This document shows, piece by piece, positions 14,665 to 46,791 of a stretch of 51,277 nucleotides of DNA (position 1 is the stretch's first letter; every line of letters starts with the position of its first letter). The notes below the pieces were generated by a model. That model was not told the DNA's origin. It ran no database searches and saw only the letters and a program-made list of their open reading frames with translations. Origin of the DNA: Escherichia phage tonnikala. Both the position numbers and the translations under genes were made by a program. Location: sequence record NC_049817.1. The stretch is one strand, 5' to 3'.

Positions 14665-14936
14665 TACTTCTTGATCTCCTCACTGATAAATTTCAGCACC
14701 TGACGCAAGAAAACCTCGTTGTTGATAGTCGCTGGCAATTCTTCTTTCACTTCTTGCGGCAGATAGATATTGCCGTGCCAGGTCAAGCAATCGTAGTTGA
14801 TGCGATAAGAGCAAAGCCACTCGCAATCGTTATCTGCTTCCCAAATGCAGAGTTGCAGAACATCGCCGAAGTCTTCAACAGTCAGATCCAGACCGTGACG
14901 CTTAGCGAAATTGAAAGTGGTTTTGCTGATGTTCAT
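14664..14936 (-). CDS. hypothetical protein, first gene of leftward early operon
   Basis: 90 aa; AGGAG RBS 6 nt upstream of ATG at 14936. Confidence 0.5.
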   Translation of the reverse strand: MNISKTTFNFAKRHGLDLTVEDFGDVLQLCIWEADNDCEWLCSYRINYDCLTWHGNIYLPQEVKEELPATINNEVFLRQVLKFISEEIKK

Positions 14937-18562: not shown

Positions 18563-19273
18563 ATGAAAAAATACACTTTCGAACTGTGGGGCAAGAAGTA
18601 CGAATTAATCACCAGCAAGCCGATTGTTATCGTTGACCTGGACGGAACACTATCGGACGGATCGCATCGTTTGCATTTGCTGCCAACTGAAAACTTGCAC
18701 CTTACGGAATCGTGGCGCGAGTTTAACAGGGCCGCCGCCGGAGATTCACCGATTAAAAGCACTATCGCGGTTATTAACGGTTTATGGGTGTCGGGATTTG
18801 CCATCGTCATCTTGACCGGACGCAGCGACGAGGTTCGCTATGAAACCTGCAAATGGTTGAATGAGAACGGCGTGAAGTTTGACGAAATCATCATGCGCCG
18901 CCAGGAGGACAACCGAAAGGATACGGTTATTAAAGAAGAAGCCTTGCGCGCTATTGGCCTGGACAACATTGTTTGCGCCTTTGACGATTCGCCGAACGTG
19001 GTTAAGCACTTCCGCAGCTTGGGGATCACAACCTATCAGGTCACGGAATACGACAAGCCACACGCTCACATACAATCTCACGGCGTGGAATCAATAAAGA
19101 TCACGAAGCGCGCCCTATTCGTCGGCAGCAAAGACAGCCTGGTCAATGCCAGCTTTATCAAAGGCAAGGTTTATGATGTTCATAGCCATGATAAAAACCG
19201 ATTCTTTTTGTGGGATGAAAAAGGTTTTGGCTGGTGCTTTGAACACGACGACGGCGATTTTGTTAATGCGTAA
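18563..19273 (+). CDS. HAD-superfamily phosphatase, polynucleotide 3'-phosphatase-like
   Basis: HAD motif I VIVDLDGTLSD, motif II ILTGRSD, motif III K...AFDDS; extra C-terminal domain of about 70 aa. Confidence 0.6.
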   Translation: MKKYTFELWGKKYELITSKPIVIVDLDGTLSDGSHRLHLLPTENLHLTESWREFNRAAAGDSPIKSTIAVINGLWVSGFAIVILTGRSDEVRYETCKWLNENGVKFDEIIMRRQEDNRKDTVIKEEALRAIGLDNIVCAFDDSPNVVKHFRSLGITTYQVTEYDKPHAHIQSHGVESIKITKRALFVGSKDSLVNASFIKGKVYDVHSHDKNRFFLWDEKGFGWCFEHDDGDFVNA

Positions 19274-32317: not shown

Positions 32318-32737
32318 ATGGTAGATGAATTTTACACAGACGCTGAAATCATGCAGCAAATCGTAAAGTTAGCGCCGCCAATGCAACAGGTCGATCCCGA
32401 TTTAATTGTGGCATGGATTGAGCTTGCTAAAGAGTTTGTTTGCAAAAAACGGTTTAAAAACTCATACCCTAAAGCGGTTGCGCTTTACACTCTTCACCTT
32501 ATGACCTTAGACGGGGCAATGAAACAGGAAGGTGAAAGCGTAGAAAGCTATTCCCGCCGCGTCGCCTCGTTCACTCTGACTGGTGAGTTTAGTCAGACGT
32601 TTGATCGAATCTCTTCCGATACAAGCGGAAAGCAGATCCGACAAACGCCGTGGGGCAAAATGTACGAAGTGTTAAACCGTAAGCACGGTGGCGGCTTTGG
32701 CCTTGTGACTGGATTGCGCCGGAGATGCTGCCGATGA
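32318..32737 (+). CDS. head-tail connector protein (gp6-like)
   Basis: 139 aa; position and size fit head-tail adaptor proteins. Confidence 0.45.
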
Positions 32738-33105
32738 ACTACAATGAGATTGCAAGAATGGCTACGGCTGGGATTAACTTTTTCAGCGACGCTAACGGTA
32801 TGTTTAAGTGCATCACGCAGCAGGGAGGGGTTGAGATTATCGGTGGAGAGGAAGTTACCAAGCCGGAGATTTCAGTGATGATAAAGGGGCTTGTTAGATC
32901 TCCGAGGACTAGAGAGGTTGACGGTGAAACAATCCGAGTAACCGACAAGTTGGGGATATTCACCAATGAAACTGAGATCAAAAATGGTTATCAGATTGAA
33001 ATTGATGGCGAACGTTATGTTGTCGTTGAAGCAAGACCAGTCAGGCAGACTAACATCACGGCGGCTTATCGTCCGATATTAAGGAGGATTGCTGTGCATG
33101 GCTGA
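32734..33105 (+). CDS. head-tail joining protein
   Basis: Start set at MNYNE overlapping previous stop (ATGA); small neck-module protein. Confidence 0.4.
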
Positions 33106-33934: not shown

Positions 33935-34597
33935 ATGCACTTGCCTAATGGTTCTCAAATTTTCATCGGCGTTAATATGGGTGAGCCAATTAGCGCGACT
34001 CAAATCAGCAATGCTGATAATCCTGTTTTTACAACCGAAAACACTCAAAGCATCCAAAAAGGCGCTTATGTTCTTATTGAAACATCTTCCTGGGGCAAAC
34101 TGGTTAGTCGTGTGTTGCGAGTAAAGGAAGTATCTGATAACGCAAGTGTAACTCTTGAAGGAGTAGATACAACCGATCAGAACGTGTTTCCGGCTGGTTC
34201 TAATACAGCAACCTTCCGAGAAGTAAAATCATGGGTAGAGATTCCTTGCGTACAGGATCTTGCGCAGGACGGAGGCGAGCAACAGTATTACACTTATCAG
34301 TGTTTGGCTGATGACCAGGAGCAGCAGTTACCGACATACAAGAGCGCAGTTTCTCTTACCTACACCTTCGCGCATGAATATGATAATCCGATTTATCCGA
34401 TCTTGCGCGAGGCTGAGGAATCCGGCGACGTAACCGCTTTGCGTATGTACGTTCCGAAAGCTAAAGAGATGCGTTGCTGGGCTGGCGTATTGTCCTTTAA
34501 TGACATTCCGCAAACCACTATGAACGAAATGGAAACTGTTTCCCTTTCCGTATCTCTGAAAGGTCGATTCACGTTCTTACCTTCTGACGTTAAGTAA
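33935..34597 (+). CDS. major tail protein
   Basis: 220 aa with strong AAAGGAGG RBS, directly upstream of the chaperone/frameshift pair and tape measure. Confidence 0.6.
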   Translation: MHLPNGSQIFIGVNMGEPISATQISNADNPVFTTENTQSIQKGAYVLIETSSWGKLVSRVLRVKEVSDNASVTLEGVDTTDQNVFPAGSNTATFREVKSWVEIPCVQDLAQDGGEQQYYTYQCLADDQEQQLPTYKSAVSLTYTFAHEYDNPIYPILREAEESGDVTALRMYVPKAKEMRCWAGVLSFNDIPQTTMNEMETVSLSVSLKGRFTFLPSDVK

Positions 34598-34602
34598 AAC
34601 AA

Positions 34603-34624
34603 GGGGCGTTGCGCCCCTTTTTTC
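34603..34624 (+). terminator. rho-independent terminator
   Basis: GGGGCG-TTG-CGCCCC hairpin plus TTTTTTT after major tail gene. Confidence 0.5.
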
Positions 34625-34696: not shown

Positions 34697-35014
34697 ATGG
34701 CAAAGATGAAACTAACGTTAGGCCCACTGCCTGATTTTAAACTGCCTGTTTCTTTCGTGCTTCCAAATGGTGATGAGCAAGTTATTGTTTTCACTGTGCG
34801 CCACAAGAAGGCAAGCGAGATTCACGAACGATACACGGCAGAAAAGCCGATGAGCGACGTAGAAATGATCACCTTCCTTGCTTCCGGTTGGGATCTGGAA
34901 GATGAATTTAACGAGGAAAACGTTGCTAAATTGCTGGATTATTACCCTTCTGCGTCATTATCGCTGACTGGTCATTATATGAAAGCACTTGCGGGGCAGC
35001 GGGTAAAAAACTAA
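34697..35014 (+). CDS. tail assembly chaperone (gpG-like)
   Basis: 105 aa directly upstream of tape measure; ends at slippery site. Confidence 0.65.
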   Translation: MAKMKLTLGPLPDFKLPVSFVLPNGDEQVIVFTVRHKKASEIHERYTAEKPMSDVEMITFLASGWDLEDEFNEENVAKLLDYYPSASLSLTGHYMKALAGQRVKN

Positions 35015-35331
35015 AGCGGGCGGTTTACCTGTTTTACCTCAAGCCGCCAACTGACGCACAATTAGAGGCCGTCGGCCTATCCCGTTCAGACTACGAAGGG
35101 GAGGAGCCGCCGGAGGTAATTTTTGATGAATCAATGTTTCAATCTTGGGATCTGTTTTGCGCAATGCAGACGCAATGGAGATCTACTAGCGGCAGCGTGT
35201 ATGGGTTCGACTATAACGTTTTGCCCATGCTTTTTGACATTTACAAGATTGATGATCGTGAGATGGCGCTAAATGATTTGCGCATCATGGAACAAAAGGC
35301 GCTAGAAATGATTCATTCAAACAAAACATAA
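34697..35331 (+). CDS. tail assembly chaperone frameshift product (gpGT-like, -1 shift at 35005-35011)
   Basis: Slippery heptamer A_AAA_AAC at 35005-35011; -1 frame open with no stops to 35331. Confidence 0.55.
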
Positions 35332-35352
35332 GCGCCGCGAGGCGCTTTTTTA
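35331..35352 (+). terminator. terminator-like hairpin
   Basis: AGCGCC-GCGA-GGCGCT plus TTTTTT. Confidence 0.4.
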
Positions 35353-35370: not shown

Positions 35371-38052
35371 ATGGCTGAAAAATACGCTGGCCTAACGCTA
35401 GGCGTTGACGTGTCGCAGGTCAACAATGCTGTTAAATCATTGCAGCAATTCAAGAAGGCAAACGACGACGCAAAAAAAAGCGTTAATGAATTTGTTGATT
35501 CTGAGGTTGTGGCCCGACAGCAAGCAAAACAGCTTGCCGAAGAACTGGCGCGCCAGAAAGCAGAATTTAAGAAAATCCAGGAGTCAATTGATCCCACCGC
35601 ATCAAAGATGGATAAGCTGAGAAAGGCAGCGACACAGCTTGATGCGCTATGGAAAAAGGGCGTTGTTCCTGATCAGACTTTTTTTGAGCTTGGGGCAATT
35701 CTTGAGACGCAGCAAAACAAGCTGATCGCAACAAAAAAAGCGATGACAGAGGAAGGCCGCGCGGCGCTTGAGGAATCAAAGAACAAGGCGCGCGCAGCGG
35801 AAGAGGCTAAAAAATTCGTCAAGGCTTTGCGTGAGCAGGAAGAAGCAGCAGGAAAAAGCAAGTCTGAATTGCTGGAAATGAAAGCGGCACAGCTTGGAGT
35901 TAGCCAGGAGGCAGCACCTTACATCGCAAGGCTGAAAGAGCAGGAAAAGCAGATCCAGAAACTTGGGATTTCTACAGGCCAATACAAACAAGCAATGCAG
36001 CAATTGCCAATGCAGATCACAGACGTGGTGACTTCACTTGCTTCTGGTATGCCTGTTTGGCTGGTTGCAATCCAGCAGGGCGGACAGATTAAGGATTCTT
36101 TTGGTGGCGCATCCAATGCTTTAAAAGCGTTGCTATCTTTCCTTAATCCGGTAAACGTTGCGTTTGGCTTGCTTTCCGGCACGCTGGCAATTGCTGCATA
36201 TAATGCCTACAAAACACAGACAGAGTTTGAGGCAATTAAAAAAACCGTTCAGGAAACAACTGGCTTGACTGGTGATTTTGCCGAAAAGATTGCTACCGGA
36301 ATCCAGGAGCTTTCCGACAAGACAGGCGAAAGCGCCGAAGATCTGGCAAAGGCTTACATCACCACGAAAGACGGCGCGAGCGAGGCGATTAAAAAACTGG
36401 TTGACGTTGGCATGACTTATGATGACGCAAAAAAGAAAGTCAACGAGTACAAAGGCGCATCTAGCTTTGTTGGCCTGAATAACGACATTGCAAACCACAA
36501 AAATAAAATCCTTGAGTTGGGCGAGTCGTGGTATGAAGTTTTGAAAGCGAAGCGTGATTACGCTTCCCCGTCCGGCGGCCTGTTAGGTAAAGAGCTTGGC
36601 TATGTTAATCCTATGCTTAAGTTTGCACTTAACACTTATGAAGACATTGGAAAGGTCGTAAAAGATGCTAATAAGGACATGGCTGAACGAGCGGAGCGCA
36701 TCGACAAAGAAAACCTGGCCTTGAACAGAGTGAGAGCAGCACAGGAGGCTTTAAACAAAGCCATTGAAGATCAGAAGGGCGTGGCGCGTTCGGCTGATGA
36801 AGAACTGAAAAAGCGTGCGGCTGAAAACGTGGAGTTCAGACGCAAAGAGCTTGAGGAGATCAAGAAGCAGGAGCAGAAAAAGAAAGAGGCTAAAGGCGGA
36901 ATAGTTCGCGGCCCTACTGAGCAGCTTGATAAAGAGTTGTACGTTTTAAAAGCGCAACTGGAAACTCTTAAAGAGCATCGCACTGTTAATGATGTTATTT
37001 CTCGCCAGCGTAAATCTTTATGGAGCATCGAAAAGCAGATCGAGATCCTGGAGGATGCGCAGAGCAAGCGTAAATTGACCGGAGCGGAACAGGCGCTACT
37101 AAACGAGCAAAAATCCGTTTTGGAAATGGCAAGGCAAAAGGCTGAATTAGGGGATCAGATTGTTTTGCAGGAGCGCAAAAACAAGCTGGAGCAAGATAGC
37201 ATTAAGTTTATCCGTGAAACGCAGGCGGCTATTGATGTGCTTGGCCTTAAGCAACTTGGCTACACTGAAAAGCAGATCGAGCGTGAGCTAGAGTTACGCA
37301 AGCTGCGCACAGACTACGAGGCGCAAGGAGGAAGCGTTAGCGATGAAGTTTTTCAGCAAATGGAGGCGAAACTTAAGCAGTATTATCAGACACAGGATGA
37401 GGTTCAAGGCAACTGGTTGGCAGGAGCAAAAAACGCATGGGAGCTATTCGCGGAAGATGCAAACAATGCCTATGGCAATGTTCAGCAGATCGCAAGCGAG
37501 GCGTTAAACGGCCTTACAAACCAATTAGCGAATTTTATCGCTACTGGCAAGGCAAACTTTAAAGACTTCTCGACGGCTATCATCAAAATGATTATTCAGA
37601 TGATCACGAAAATGGTTGTCTTTAATGCGTTATCTGGCCTGATGGGTGGTCAAACCTGGACGATGGGGAGCTTGCTTAAGAACATTGGCGGATTTGCTGG
37701 CGGTGGATACACTGGCGACGGCGGGAAGTATGAGCCAGCCGGAATTGTTCATAAGGGCGAATTTGTCATGACGAAGGAGGCGACGCAGCGTATCGGGGTA
37801 GGCAACTTGTACCGCATGATGCGAGGCTATGCTAACGGCGGCGCGGTTGGTAGTTCCGGCTATACTGGCGGTGGAGTTGTCACTGGTGGAGCACCTCAAT
37901 TTAACATCGGTGGGATTGATGTTAGCATCAATAACGGCAGCGATCCGAAGGGCATCGAAACTGGCGTTAAGATGATCTTTACTGATATGATTAAACGTTC
38001 CTGTATGCAGGGCGGAGAGGTTTACGAATTTGTTATGAGCAAGCGAGGTTGA
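35371..38052 (+). CDS. tail tape measure protein
   Basis: 893 aa, coiled-coil-rich Ala/Lys/Glu/Gln composition, Gly-rich C-terminal region, position after G/T pair. Confidence 0.85.
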   Translation: MAEKYAGLTLGVDVSQVNNAVKSLQQFKKANDDAKKSVNEFVDSEVVARQQAKQLAEELARQKAEFKKIQESIDPTASKMDKLRKAATQLDALWKKGVVPDQTFFELGAILETQQNKLIATKKAMTEEGRAALEESKNKARAAEEAKKFVKALREQEEAAGKSKSELLEMKAAQLGVSQEAAPYIARLKEQEKQIQKLGISTGQYKQAMQQLPMQITDVVTSLASGMPVWLVAIQQGGQIKDSFGGASNALKALLSFLNPVNVAFGLLSGTLAIAAYNAYKTQTEFEAIKKTVQETTGLTGDFAEKIATGIQELSDKTGESAEDLAKAYITTKDGASEAIKKLVDVGMTYDDAKKKVNEYKGASSFVGLNNDIANHKNKILELGESWYEVLKAKRDYASPSGGLLGKELGYVNPMLKFALNTYEDIGKVVKDANKDMAERAERIDKENLALNRVRAAQEALNKAIEDQKGVARSADEELKKRAAENVEFRRKELEEIKKQEQKKKEAKGGIVRGPTEQLDKELYVLKAQLETLKEHRTVNDVISRQRKSLWSIEKQIEILEDAQSKRKLTGAEQALLNEQKSVLEMARQKAELGDQIVLQERKNKLEQDSIKFIRETQAAIDVLGLKQLGYTEKQIERELELRKLRTDYEAQGGSVSDEVFQQMEAKLKQYYQTQDEVQGNWLAGAKNAWELFAEDANNAYGNVQQIASEALNGLTNQLANFIATGKANFKDFSTAIIKMIIQMITKMVVFNALSGLMGGQTWTMGSLLKNIGGFAGGGYTGDGGKYEPAGIVHKGEFVMTKEATQRIGVGNLYRMMRGYANGGAVGSSGYTGGGVVTGGAPQFNIGGIDVSINNGSDPKGIETGVKMIFTDMIKRSCMQGGEVYEFVMSKRG

Positions 38053-45735: not shown

Positions 45736-46791
45736 ATGAGTGATTTTAACGCCTACACTAGCGAAGAAATGAGCAATGAGCTTTATCATGATCCTAACGC
45801 GTGGACGGCTGAATACGTCAGCGGTTCCAGCTTGGCGGAGATTTACAGCACTTGCCCGGCGTACTGGAAGTACAAGCCTCGCCAGGAAACTAAGGCACTT
45901 GTTTTCGGTACGCAGTCGCATACCAATTTTGAAAGCAAGGAGTTATTCGAAAAAACATATCGCCGCGCACCGTCGCAGGATGATTTTAAAGATCTGATCA
46001 CAAGTCAAACGGCGTTAGCCTCAAAGCTGAAATCTTTTGGCCTGAAAGGTACAACGGGTAAGCAATACCCAGAATTGCTGGAAATGCTGTACAAGTGCGG
46101 TGAGGATCTCAATGTATGGTGGCTTATCGAAATGATGGCAGAATGCCAGGCCGCAGCGGACGGCGTGCAGTTAATCGACGCGAAAGATTATGATGCCTGT
46201 GTAGCGATGCGGCGCGTACTTGAGGCAATACCTGAGCATAATGCTTGCATGAATAGCCCAACCGCGCAGCGTGAAATGTCAATATTCGGGATCATCAATG
46301 GCGTAAAAGTTAAAGTGCGCCTTGATCACGTTGACGTAAACAAGGATGTAAAGGCCACAATCATTAACGGTTACGACGAAAAAGGCCGACCGATTTATGA
46401 AGAAGTCATCTATCCAGAAGCTGTGATTATCACTGACTATAAAACAACGGTTAGCGCAAATCCGGTTGACTTCCAGCGCCTGGCTTACAATCACGGCTAT
46501 TATCTCAAAATGGCTTTGCAGCATGATTTATTTAAAAAGGCGTATCCAGACGAGGAAAGGCCAGTAATTGTGAGATTGCTTGCTCAAGAGAAGAAAGAGC
46601 CTTACTTGCCGCTCGCATTCCGCATGAACATTGAGCAATTGAAGATCGGGCGTATCCAGTACATGAGCGTGATCAACAAGTTCAACGTTTGCCAACAGTT
46701 AGATGAATGGCCTTCGTATGCAAACGGGCAGCCAGAAATTGATCTTGATACTCCTGATTGGGTGCGCGCTCAATTCAGGCAGTATCTATGA
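45736..46791 (+). CDS. PD-(D/E)XK-family exonuclease (RecE/exonuclease VIII-like)
   Basis: 351 aa; D...E-x-K style core (VIITDYKTT); encoded just upstream of Erf and SSB. Confidence 0.5.
   Translation: MSDFNAYTSEEMSNELYHDPNAWTAEYVSGSSLAEIYSTCPAYWKYKPRQETKALVFGTQSHTNFESKELFEKTYRRAPSQDDFKDLITSQTALASKLKSFGLKGTTGKQYPELLEMLYKCGEDLNVWWLIEMMAECQAAADGVQLIDAKDYDACVAMRRVLEAIPEHNACMNSPTAQREMSIFGIINGVKVKVRLDHVDVNKDVKATIINGYDEKGRPIYEEVIYPEAVIITDYKTTVSANPVDFQRLAYNHGYYLKMALQHDLFKKAYPDEERPVIVRLLAQEKKEPYLPLAFRMNIEQLKIGRIQYMSVINKFNVCQQLDEWPSYANGQPEIDLDTPDWVRAQFRQYL

What the first reader, a model, noticed from the sequence alone, without database searches (positions are those of the whole stretch)
35005..35011. 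Programmed -1 frameshift site in the tail assembly chaperone
A classical A_AAA_AAC slippery heptamer sits at the last codons of the gpG-like ORF, and the -1 frame stays open for 109 codons into the downstream ORF. This gives the conserved G/G-T chaperone pair just before the tape measure gene.
Basis: partly seen in the sequence, partly recalled or inferred. Interest (0 to 1): 0.35.

Follow-up and report, generated by a model that had tools for sequence, protein, structure and literature searches.

The report
Known T1-type tail chaperone frameshift
This is the ordinary, already annotated -1 ribosomal frameshift site that lets a T1-like E. coli phage make a short and a long form of its tail assembly chaperone just upstream of the tape measure gene.

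Summary
A_AAA_AAC lies at 35005-35011 in the X_XXY_YYZ register of a 105-codon ORF (34697-35014). It is followed directly by TAA. The -1 frame runs 106 further codons to 35331.

The heptamer alone is not significant: there are 25 copies in the window against 21 expected. The supporting evidence is comparative.

- The window is a Warwickvirus-like member of Drexlerviridae (T1-like).
- The ORF is PF08748 (Phage_TAC_4) and the -1 extension is PF08809 (DUF1799).
- One PHROG profile of 213 positions matches the two pieces end to end.
- The 41 extension codons that have no ATG, GTG or TTG codon upstream of them in that frame evolve as coding sequence.
- A_AAA_AAC followed by a stop is present in 16 of 16 GenBank relatives and 70 of 80 IMG/VR relatives, down to 39% protein identity. 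The codon before it varies (Val, Ala, Thr, Leu) but always ends in A.
- The T1 GenBank record already carries the joined "frameshift product" CDS at this A-run.

A downstream hairpin is present in only about half of the lineages and has no convincing covariation.

Its practical value is correcting annotation. No experiment on this site was found.

The parts
33935..34597 (+). Major tail (tube) protein gene, immediately upstream (context)
   Evidence: PF08813 Phage_tail_3, E=3e-64, and phrog_584
34601..34619 (+). Terminator-like GC hairpin plus T-run between the tube gene and the chaperone gene (context)
   Evidence: The same element is annotated as a terminator in phage vB_Eco_Sip
34683..34689 (+). 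Shine-Dalgarno-like AAGGAGA, 7 nt before the ATG of the chaperone gene
   Evidence: Read directly from the sequence
34697..35014 (+). Short chaperone ORF (G-like, 105 aa, 11.9 kDa), the product of standard decoding
   Evidence: PF08748 Phage_TAC_4, E=5e-31, covering the full length. The exact protein is in databases as 'TfmA' or 'tape measure chaperone' of Warwickvirus. Mass
35005..35011 (+). Slippery heptamer A_AAA_AAC in X_XXY_YYZ register (the last base of codon 103 plus codons 104 and 105)
   Evidence: Present in 16/16 GenBank relatives and 70/80 IMG/VR relatives. The preceding codon is GTA, GCA, ACA or CTA, always ending in A
35012..35014 (+). 0-frame stop TAA directly after the heptamer; possibly part of the signal
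   Evidence: TAA in 68 and TGA in 2 of the 70 motif-bearing IMG/VR loci. A role as stimulator is inferred, not shown
35011..35331 (+). -1 frame extension (T-like, 106 codons plus stop). It has no ATG, GTG or TTG before 35134
   Evidence: PF08809 DUF1799, E=2e-12, and phrog_680 from extension residue 10. Codon-position divergence of residues 1-41 is 0.24/0.17/0.56. ORF list
34697..35331 (+). Predicted fusion product, join(34697..35011, 35011..35331): 211 aa, 24.3 kDa
   Evidence: phrog_17368 matches G at positions 1-107 and the extension at 108-211. The T1 homologue AAP50000.2 has the same 211-aa architecture. Mass
35019..35048 (+). Candidate stimulatory hairpin (GGCGGTTT / AAGCCGCC, 14-nt loop) 7 nt after the heptamer; status inconclusive
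   Evidence: It is in the MFE fold but z=-0.77. Energy -13.2 kcal/mol, 9th percentile of local windows. Stronger in about 20 of 36 lineages and absent in the rest. No RNAalifold consensus. Weak covariation
35330..35347 (+). Terminator-like hairpin plus T-run right after the extension's stop, before the tape measure gene (context)
   Evidence: Annotated as a terminator in T1 and vB_Eco_Sip
35371..38052 (+). Tape measure protein gene (893 aa), the presumed client of the chaperone
   Evidence: PF06791 TMP_2, E=2e-37; PF09718, E=2e-22; phrog_24

Best explanation

Most ribosomes translate 34697-35011 and terminate at TAA, giving a 105-aa chaperone (11.9 kDa). A minority slip back one base on A_AAA_AAC. 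The tRNA-Lys on AAA re-pairs with AAA, and the tRNA-Asn on AAC re-pairs with AAA with a wobble mismatch. These ribosomes continue in the -1 frame to 35331 and make a 211-aa fusion (24.3 kDa) whose C-terminal half is a DUF1799 domain.

By analogy with lambda gpG and gpGT, the shared N-terminal part would coat the tape measure protein and the extra domain would recruit the tube protein. The fixed low shift rate would set the ratio of the two forms.

Shown here: the site, its register, the open -1 frame, the family assignments, coding-type evolution of the start-less extension, and nucleotide-level conservation of the heptamer and the stop.

Inferred: that slippage is ribosomal, its efficiency (probably a few percent or less), which tRNAs slip, the roles of the two domains, and any stimulatory role of the adjacent stop or the hairpin.
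For: - Register and frames.
- Families: PF08748 for G and PF08809 for the extension. phrog_17368 matches the two parts contiguously, 1-107 and 108-211.
- Context: lambda-order tail module.
- No start: there is no ATG, GTG or TTG in the -1 frame between 34930 and 35134. Yet extension residues 1-41 diverge 0.24/0.17/0.56 at codon positions 1/2/3, like the rest of G and T, and begin with the conserved LKRAVYL.
- Conservation: AAAAAAC plus a stop in 16/16 GenBank relatives from at least 8 genera and in 70/80 IMG/VR loci that were found by protein pattern, not by motif, including one at 39% identity.
- Nucleotide-level selection: the preceding codon encodes V, A, T or L but always ends in A. A is used at 22% of comparable codon positions elsewhere, and the joint baseline for the three synonymous choices is about 0.08.
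- Prior annotation: T1 has a two-piece joined CDS 'frameshift product' whose protein equals G plus the -1 frame joined in this A-run. Papers on the T1-like phages Stevie and Skenny state that the frameshift is conserved (PMC4319613, PMC6763657).
- Precedent: A_AAA_AAC is a proven low-efficiency -1 site in E. coli IS1 without an established stimulator (PMC4066793). The lambda G/GT mechanism and its 30:1 ratio are reviewed in PMC5009743.
Against: - I found no experimental demonstration (reporter, western blot or mass spectrometry) for this phage or any T1-like phage. The primary papers by Xu et al. 2004 and Roberts et al. 2004 could not be read.
- The heptamer by itself is as frequent as chance predicts.
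- In E. coli, heptamers ending in a mixed purine/pyrimidine codon such as AAC shift less well than those ending in AAA or AAG (PMC4066793).
- No stimulatory RNA structure is conserved across the family.
- A few relatives lack the heptamer. phiEB49-like phages have GCA AAG GTC TAA and L085 has GCA AAA GCC TAA, so the exact motif is not obligatory.
- Most GenBank records of close relatives annotate a separate 65-aa ORF instead.
Confidence: 0.88

Rival explanations
1. The downstream part is made only as an independent 65-aa protein that initiates at ATG 35134, as most GenBank records of close relatives annotate it. On this view the heptamer is incidental.
For: - Gene callers annotate 35134..35331 equivalents as a separate CDS.
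- The Met at extension residue 42 is present in all 12 aligned relatives.
- A GGAGG lies upstream at 35112-35116.
Against: - The GGAGG is 17 nt from the ATG, which is too far for a typical Shine-Dalgarno spacing.
- The 41 codons upstream of the ATG are conserved as protein (LKRAVYL...) with a coding substitution pattern. They match phrog_680, phrog_17368 and DUF1799.
- Annotated start positions differ between relatives, whereas the heptamer-stop junction is fixed.
- This rival does not explain selection on synonymous bases of the heptamer.
Confidence: 0.05
2. The fusion arises from transcriptional slippage. RNA polymerase adds one A in the A6 run, giving A7 mRNAs that encode G-T in one frame with a ...V-K-K-L-K-R... 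junction.
For: - A homopolymeric A6 run is present.
- Transcriptional slippage is used by some bacterial and IS genes (reviewed in PMC5009743).
- Inserting one base would give the same reading frame as a -1 ribosomal shift.
Against: - On an A6 run in E. coli (pDEST17), cDNA sequencing showed a single RNA species with six As, while -1 ribosomal frameshifting occurred (PMC1851650).
- From my own knowledge, productive slippage normally needs runs of about 9 or more.
- The conserved feature is a heptamer in a fixed codon register with C at position 7 and an adjacent stop. A polymerase has no reason to require that.
- The phiEB49-like variant keeps A_AAG, a ribosomal shift tetramer, with only three As.
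Confidence: 0.05
3. Chance coincidence: the heptamer, the stop and the open -1 frame have no decoding function.
For: - The heptamer count equals expectation.
- The mechanical criteria also pick up four other sites in the window. Both of the two I checked are artefacts.
Against: Conservation of the motif at synonymous positions down to 39% protein identity, family matches on both sides of the junction, and purifying selection on a start-less ORF.
Confidence: 0.02

Closest known systems
Phage T1 tape measure chaperone pair (AAP49960.1 and frameshift product AAP50000.2, record AY216660.1)
   Same: - Same Pfam families.
- Same lengths, 105 aa and 211 aa.
- Same ...A AAA AAC TAA A junction.
- Same position between the tube and tape measure genes, with terminator-like hairpins on both sides.
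   Different: G is about 56% identical in protein and the region about 66% identical in DNA. T1 has an extra inner helix in the downstream hairpin, which the window lost through a CAG-to-CTC (Gln-to-Leu) change. The close relatives whose records I inspected lack the joined CDS.
Lambda gpG / gpGT (G_GGA_AAG; Levin 1993; Xu, Hendrix and Duda 2004, 2013, 2014)
   Same: Same gene position and order, a -1 shift near the end of the first ORF, no required RNA stimulator, a low-level fusion product, and the same presumed division of labour: tape measure binding and tube protein recruitment (PMC5009743).
   Different: - Different heptamer.
- Lambda's G stop lies several codons after the site, not adjacent to it.
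- Different Pfam families, PF06894 and PF06223.
- No detectable profile similarity.
IS1 insA-insB' frameshift (A_AAA_AAC)
   Same: The identical heptamer working in E. coli at low efficiency (about 1%) with no established stimulator, and producing a fusion protein (PMC4066793, PMC1851650).
   Different: It is a transposase gene, not a phage chaperone. From my own knowledge, the 0-frame stop is not immediately adjacent.
E. coli dnaX (A_AAA_AAG with an upstream SD-like element and a downstream stem-loop)
   Same: An A-rich heptamer and a hairpin a few nucleotides downstream (7 nt here, 5 nt in dnaX; PMC1851650).
   Different: dnaX shifts at high efficiency and needs both stimulators. Here the last base is C, no upstream SD-like element is conserved, and the hairpin is lineage-specific.

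Membership tests
G/GT-type tail assembly chaperone with programmed -1 frameshift (class of Xu, Hendrix and Duda 2004) | Two overlapping ORFs located between the major tail gene and the tape measure gene | tested here: met
   Tube gene 33935-34597, G 34697-35014, extension to 35331, tape measure 35371-38052. Lambda-order module downstream
G/GT-type tail assembly chaperone with programmed -1 frameshift (class of Xu, Hendrix and Duda 2004) | The second ORF is in the -1 frame, has no start of its own near the overlap, and is nevertheless coding | tested here: met
   No ATG, GTG or TTG in the -1 frame from 34930 to 35133. Residues 1-41 show a coding substitution pattern and profile matches
G/GT-type tail assembly chaperone with programmed -1 frameshift (class of Xu, Hendrix and Duda 2004) | A slippery X_XXY_YYZ heptamer in the overlap, in register, and conserved among relatives | tested here: met
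   A_AAA_AAC in register. Present in 16/16 and 70/80 relatives. Synonymous positions are fixed
G/GT-type tail assembly chaperone with programmed -1 frameshift (class of Xu, Hendrix and Duda 2004) | The fusion protein is actually produced at a low fixed ratio and is needed for tail assembly | not testable with these tools
   Needs a western blot, mass spectrometry, a reporter or phage genetics. No published test on a T1-like phage was found
T1-family chaperone proteins (Pfam PF08748 Phage_TAC_4 + PF08809 DUF1799; phrog_17368) | Scores above the curated Pfam thresholds for both halves | tested here: met
   107.9 bits against a cut-off of 21.1, and 47.4 bits against 26. phrog_17368 E=1.6e-39 and 1e-53, contiguous
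Lambda gpG / gpT protein families (PF06894 Phage_TAC_2, PF06223 Phage_tail_T) | Sequence or profile similarity to lambda G and T | tested here: not met
   No hit to these families. Lambda G and T hit them. hhalign of the G alignment against lambda G gives probability 0.1%. A shared fold could not be tested because the AF2 model reached only pLDDT 43
Structure-stimulated -1 frameshift signals (dnaX or IS3 type) | A conserved stem-loop or pseudoknot 5-9 nt downstream, supported by covariation | tested here: inconclusive
   A hairpin lies 7 nt downstream in the window (z=-0.77). It is strong in about 20 of 36 lineages and absent in about 16. No consensus fold. The covariation score is matched by a slid control. 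Both arms encode conserved residues (RAVY / KPP)
Structure-stimulated -1 frameshift signals (dnaX or IS3 type) | A conserved upstream Shine-Dalgarno-like stimulator 6-17 nt before the heptamer | tested here: not met
   The G-rich stretch upstream in the window (GCGGGGCAGCGGG) is not kept in T1 (GCCGGACACCGCG) or other relatives (alignment A1). Judged by eye only

The most novel reading that the evidence does not exclude
The stop codon immediately after the heptamer is nearly invariant: TAA in 68 and TGA in 2 of 70 loci. It is kept even though this forces the rarest Leu codon, CTA, in the -1 frame. It could itself be the stimulator, a 'shifty stop'. In that case slippage would happen after translocation, with tRNA-Asn in the P site and UAA in the A site, and would compete with release-factor binding. 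The ratio of short to long chaperone would then be set by termination kinetics rather than by an RNA structure. The lineage-specific hairpin and the A_AAG variant of phiEB49-like phages would be alternative ways of tuning the same ratio.
Probability: 0.3. Interest if true: 0.35.

Novelty: already known. Interest (0 to 1): 0.12.

Why it matters
The value is mainly for annotation. The window's close relatives whose records I inspected list G and a truncated 65-aa 'T' as separate genes, or label them 'tail length tape measure protein'. The biologically relevant product is probably a 211-aa fusion, join(34697..35011, 35011..35331).

The family-wide comparison also gives a clean natural data set for asking how E. 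coli phages set a low frameshift rate. It contains an invariant heptamer with an adjacent stop, an optional hairpin, and an A_AAG variant.

Tail assembly chaperones have also recently been reported as triggers of bacterial Avs sensors, which bind the N-terminal core shared by both isoforms (PMC12803255). Correct isoform models therefore have some practical use.

Tried and rejected
- **AlphaFold2 on the fusion.** The 211-aa fusion was folded without an alignment. Mean pLDDT was 43 and pTM 0.37, with residues 1-118 below 50. This is unusable, so I ran no fold search. Loci-derived homologues are not accepted for an alignment job.
- **The search for homologous proteins with the fusion.** Only 3 hits came back, all -1 frame ORF calls of 123-136 aa. 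This told me nothing about fusions. The exact-sequence look-up answered the question instead.
- **PDB and NCBIfam.** The PDB sequence search and NCBIfam returned nothing relevant.
- **RNA structure.** RNAalifold on 12 diverse relatives predicted no consensus structure. The window fold has z=-0.77. The covariation count for the hairpin was not clearly above the slid controls. I therefore do not claim a stimulatory structure.
- **Upstream SD-like stimulator.** Rejected, because it is not conserved.
- **Remote homology to lambda gpG.** Rejected at sequence level.
- **Primary papers.** Xu et al. 2004 (PMID 15469818) and Roberts et al. 2004 (PMID 14972552) are not held. What they report about T1 is known to me only through the T1 record's note and through citing papers.
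- **Other heptamers flagged by the mechanical scan.** The sites at 14688 and 45985 on the + strand lie in shadow ORFs. The sites at 18571 and 11372 on the - strand were not examined further.

Full report
**1. What is in the sequence.**

The ORF at 34697..35014 has an AAGGAGA Shine-Dalgarno-like sequence 7 nt upstream and encodes 105 aa. It ends ...CAG CGG GTA AAA AAC TAA. The heptamer at 35005-35011 is therefore A_AAA_AAC in the X_XXY_YYZ register. It occupies the last base of codon 103 and the last two sense codons, and the stop follows immediately.

The -1 frame is open from 34930 to 35331. After the heptamer it encodes 106 residues, LKRAVYLFYLKPPTD...HSNKT. The first ATG, GTG or TTG in that frame is at 35134.

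**2. Is it more than chance?**

Not on the window alone. AAAAAAC occurs 25 times and 21.4 +/- 4.5 copies are expected. Of 390 X_XXY_YYZ heptamers, five combine a long upstream 0 frame with a -1 frame that extends at least 50 codons beyond the stop. The two others I looked at lie in shadow ORFs of real genes. The case rests on homology and conservation.

**3. Identity of the genes.**

- The window is 96-97% identical to Warwickvirus phages (Drexlerviridae, Tempevirinae), that is, T1-like phages. The G-T region is 100% identical to phage brachmannus.
- The flanking genes are a tail terminator (PF13554), the tube protein (PF08813) and the tape measure protein (PF06791 + PF09718). Homologues of lambda M, L, K, I and J follow.
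- The 105-aa ORF is PF08748 Phage_TAC_4 (E=5e-31). The -1 extension is PF08809 DUF1799 (E=2e-12).
- phrog_17368, a 213-position profile, matches G at positions 1-107 and the extension at 108-211. This indicates that fused proteins of this architecture are already in the databases.

**4. Evidence that the start-less part is translated.**

In 12 relatives spanning at least 8 genera, the extension aligns from its first residue (LKRAVYL...). Residues 1-41 lie upstream of the window's first ATG. They diverge 0.24/0.17/0.56 at codon positions 1/2/3. The rest of T gives 0.29/0.16/0.58 and G gives 0.31/0.22/0.60. The length of the -1 frame upstream of the site varies from 9 to 56 codons, whereas the extension is constant at 104-110 codons.

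**5. Conservation of the signal.**

- All 16 GenBank relatives I fetched carry ...A AAA AAC TAA A. They include T1, Rtp, Hanrivervirus, TLS-like phages, and Klebsiella, Cronobacter, Enterobacter and Pseudomonas phages.
- I scanned IMG/VR with protein patterns from the G alignment, so the scan was not biased toward the motif. 70 of 80 loci have AAAAAAC directly before the stop, TAA in 68 and TGA in 2. One of them has only 39% protein identity.
- The preceding codon is GTA, GCA, ACA or CTA. The amino acid differs but the third base is always A. A is used at 22% of comparable positions elsewhere in these genes, and the joint baseline for the three synonymous choices is about 0.08 per lineage. The 34 representatives used for the codon tally were selected by the motif itself; the unbiased figures are those. 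This argues for selection on the nucleotide sequence itself.
- The exceptions are informative:
  - Five phiEB49-like loci have GCA AAG GTC TAA, which keeps the A_AAG shift-prone tetramer.
  - One locus has GCA AAA GCC TAA.
  - Four genomes have an A5 run that breaks the frame relationship, most likely homopolymer errors.

**6. Prior knowledge.**

The T1 record AY216660.1 carries a two-piece joined CDS, 'tape measure chaperone, frameshift product'. An exact-sequence look-up shows that its protein AAP50000.2 equals T1 G joined to the -1 frame inside this A-run, with the junction written ...AKK-LKR.

Genome papers on the T1-like phages Stevie and Skenny state that the chaperones contain the conserved frameshift (PMC4319613, PMC6763657). 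The lambda paradigm is reviewed in PMC5009743: G_GGA_AAG, a 30:1 ratio, G binding the tape measure and T binding the tube protein.

The window's exact fusion, with either junction, is not in the protein collection, although its G protein is. The close relatives whose records I inspected annotate a separate 65-aa ORF, or none, after G.

**7. Mechanism.**

The best-supported reading is low-level ribosomal -1 slippage on A_AAA_AAC.

- In E. coli this heptamer is a proven shift site in IS1 with no established stimulator. Heptamers ending in a mixed codon such as AAC are weaker than those ending in AAA or AAG (PMC4066793). That fits a need for a minor product.
- On an A6 run in E. coli, cDNA analysis found no extra A while ribosomal frameshifting occurred (PMC1851650). 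This argues against transcriptional slippage.
- The hairpin GGCGGTTT/AAGCCGCC starts 7 nt after the heptamer and appears in the MFE fold, but it is not better than shuffles (z=-0.77).
- About 20 of 36 representative lineages have a stronger version (-14 to -20 kcal/mol, top 2-6% of local windows). Rtp-like, Ec_L1-like and other lineages lack it.
- RNAalifold finds no consensus. The covariation score is matched by a slid control. Both arms encode conserved residues, so a stimulatory role remains open.
- The stop adjacent to the heptamer is nearly invariant and may contribute as a 'shifty stop'. This is inference only.
- The junction residue (N or K) and the efficiency are unknown.

**8. Comparison with known systems.**

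The site works like lambda G/GT and belongs to the T1 chaperone family. It does not belong to the lambda G and T sequence families, which are different Pfam families with hhalign probability 0.1%. Fold-level kinship could not be tested, because the single-sequence AF2 model reached only pLDDT 43.

**9. Verdict.**

The feature is already known in T1 and widely recognised in T1-like phages. Interest is low. The main practical outcome is a corrected annotation: a fusion of 211 aa and 24.3 kDa alongside the 11.9-kDa short form.

Noticed in passing
L054, L062, L063, L065, L066 (phiEB49, e4/1c and relatives), about 1500-1515 in each locus: These Rogunavirus-like relatives replace A_AAA_AAC with GCA AAG GTC TAA. 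The same 106-codon -1 extension follows. Only the shift-prone tetramer A_AAG remains, which suggests a single-tRNA slip variant of the same recoding event. 31 GenBank records match this region; I did not check which of them carry the variant, and Sd1 (L055) has A_AAA_AAC.
   Followed up: partly
L085 (IMGVR_UViG_3300045988_004166), end of the G-like ORF: A further variant, CGT GCA AAA GCC TAA, with a 105-codon -1 extension. Only an A_AAA tetramer is available for slippage.
   Followed up: no
L023 (Shigella phage 2019SD1), L083, L089 (length matches Citrobacter phage HCF1), L094: The A-run is A5 instead of A6 (GTAAAAACTAAA). The T frame is then +1, not -1, relative to G. L089 and L094 have further frame breaks nearby. 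These are probably homopolymer sequencing errors, but a real variant is not excluded.
   Followed up: partly
window 34601-34619 and 35330-35347: Terminator-like GC hairpins with T-runs bracket the G-T cassette, one after the tube gene and one before the tape measure gene. The same arrangement is annotated in T1 and vB_Eco_Sip. It may step transcription down along the tail operon.
   Followed up: partly
window 35038-35040 versus relatives (alignment A4, columns 34-36): The window and its close relatives have CTC (Leu) where most relatives have CAG (Gln). This removes the inner helix (CTG...CAG) of the downstream hairpin and weakens it from about -18 to -13 kcal/mol.
   Followed up: partly
window 35134-35136 and 35112-35116: The Met at extension residue 42 is present in all 12 aligned relatives, and a GGAGG lies 17 nt upstream of it. 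Some independent initiation of a 65-aa (7.8 kDa) T fragment cannot be excluded.
   Followed up: partly
GenBank records MG065640, MG065636, MG065680, MG065670, MG065688: About 20 unannotated records named 'Campylobacter phage' with host C. jejuni are 72-73% identical to this E. coli T1-like region and have T1-like genome sizes. The host label looks doubtful for Drexlerviridae-type genomes.
   Followed up: no
PHROG and RefSeq naming: phrog_569, phrog_17368 and phrog_680, and many RefSeq records, call the two chaperone ORFs 'tail length tape measure protein'. That name belongs to the next gene, so the label has propagated by mistake.
   Followed up: no
window 45985 (+), 14688 (+), 18571 (-), 11372 (-): These other heptamers pass the mechanical 'long 0 frame plus long -1 extension' filter. 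The sites at 45985 and 14688 lie in short shadow ORFs overlapping real genes (for 45985; for 14688, by inference: the neighbouring genes appear to be on the minus strand). The two minus-strand sites were not examined.
   Followed up: partly
window 32725-33105: This 126-aa ORF in the head-tail connector region gives only a sub-threshold hit to the EF-P KOW-like domain (PF08207, 21.4 bits against a cut-off of 23). One relative annotates the equivalent gene as 'ribonucleoside-triphosphate reductase', which looks like a mis-annotation.
   Followed up: no
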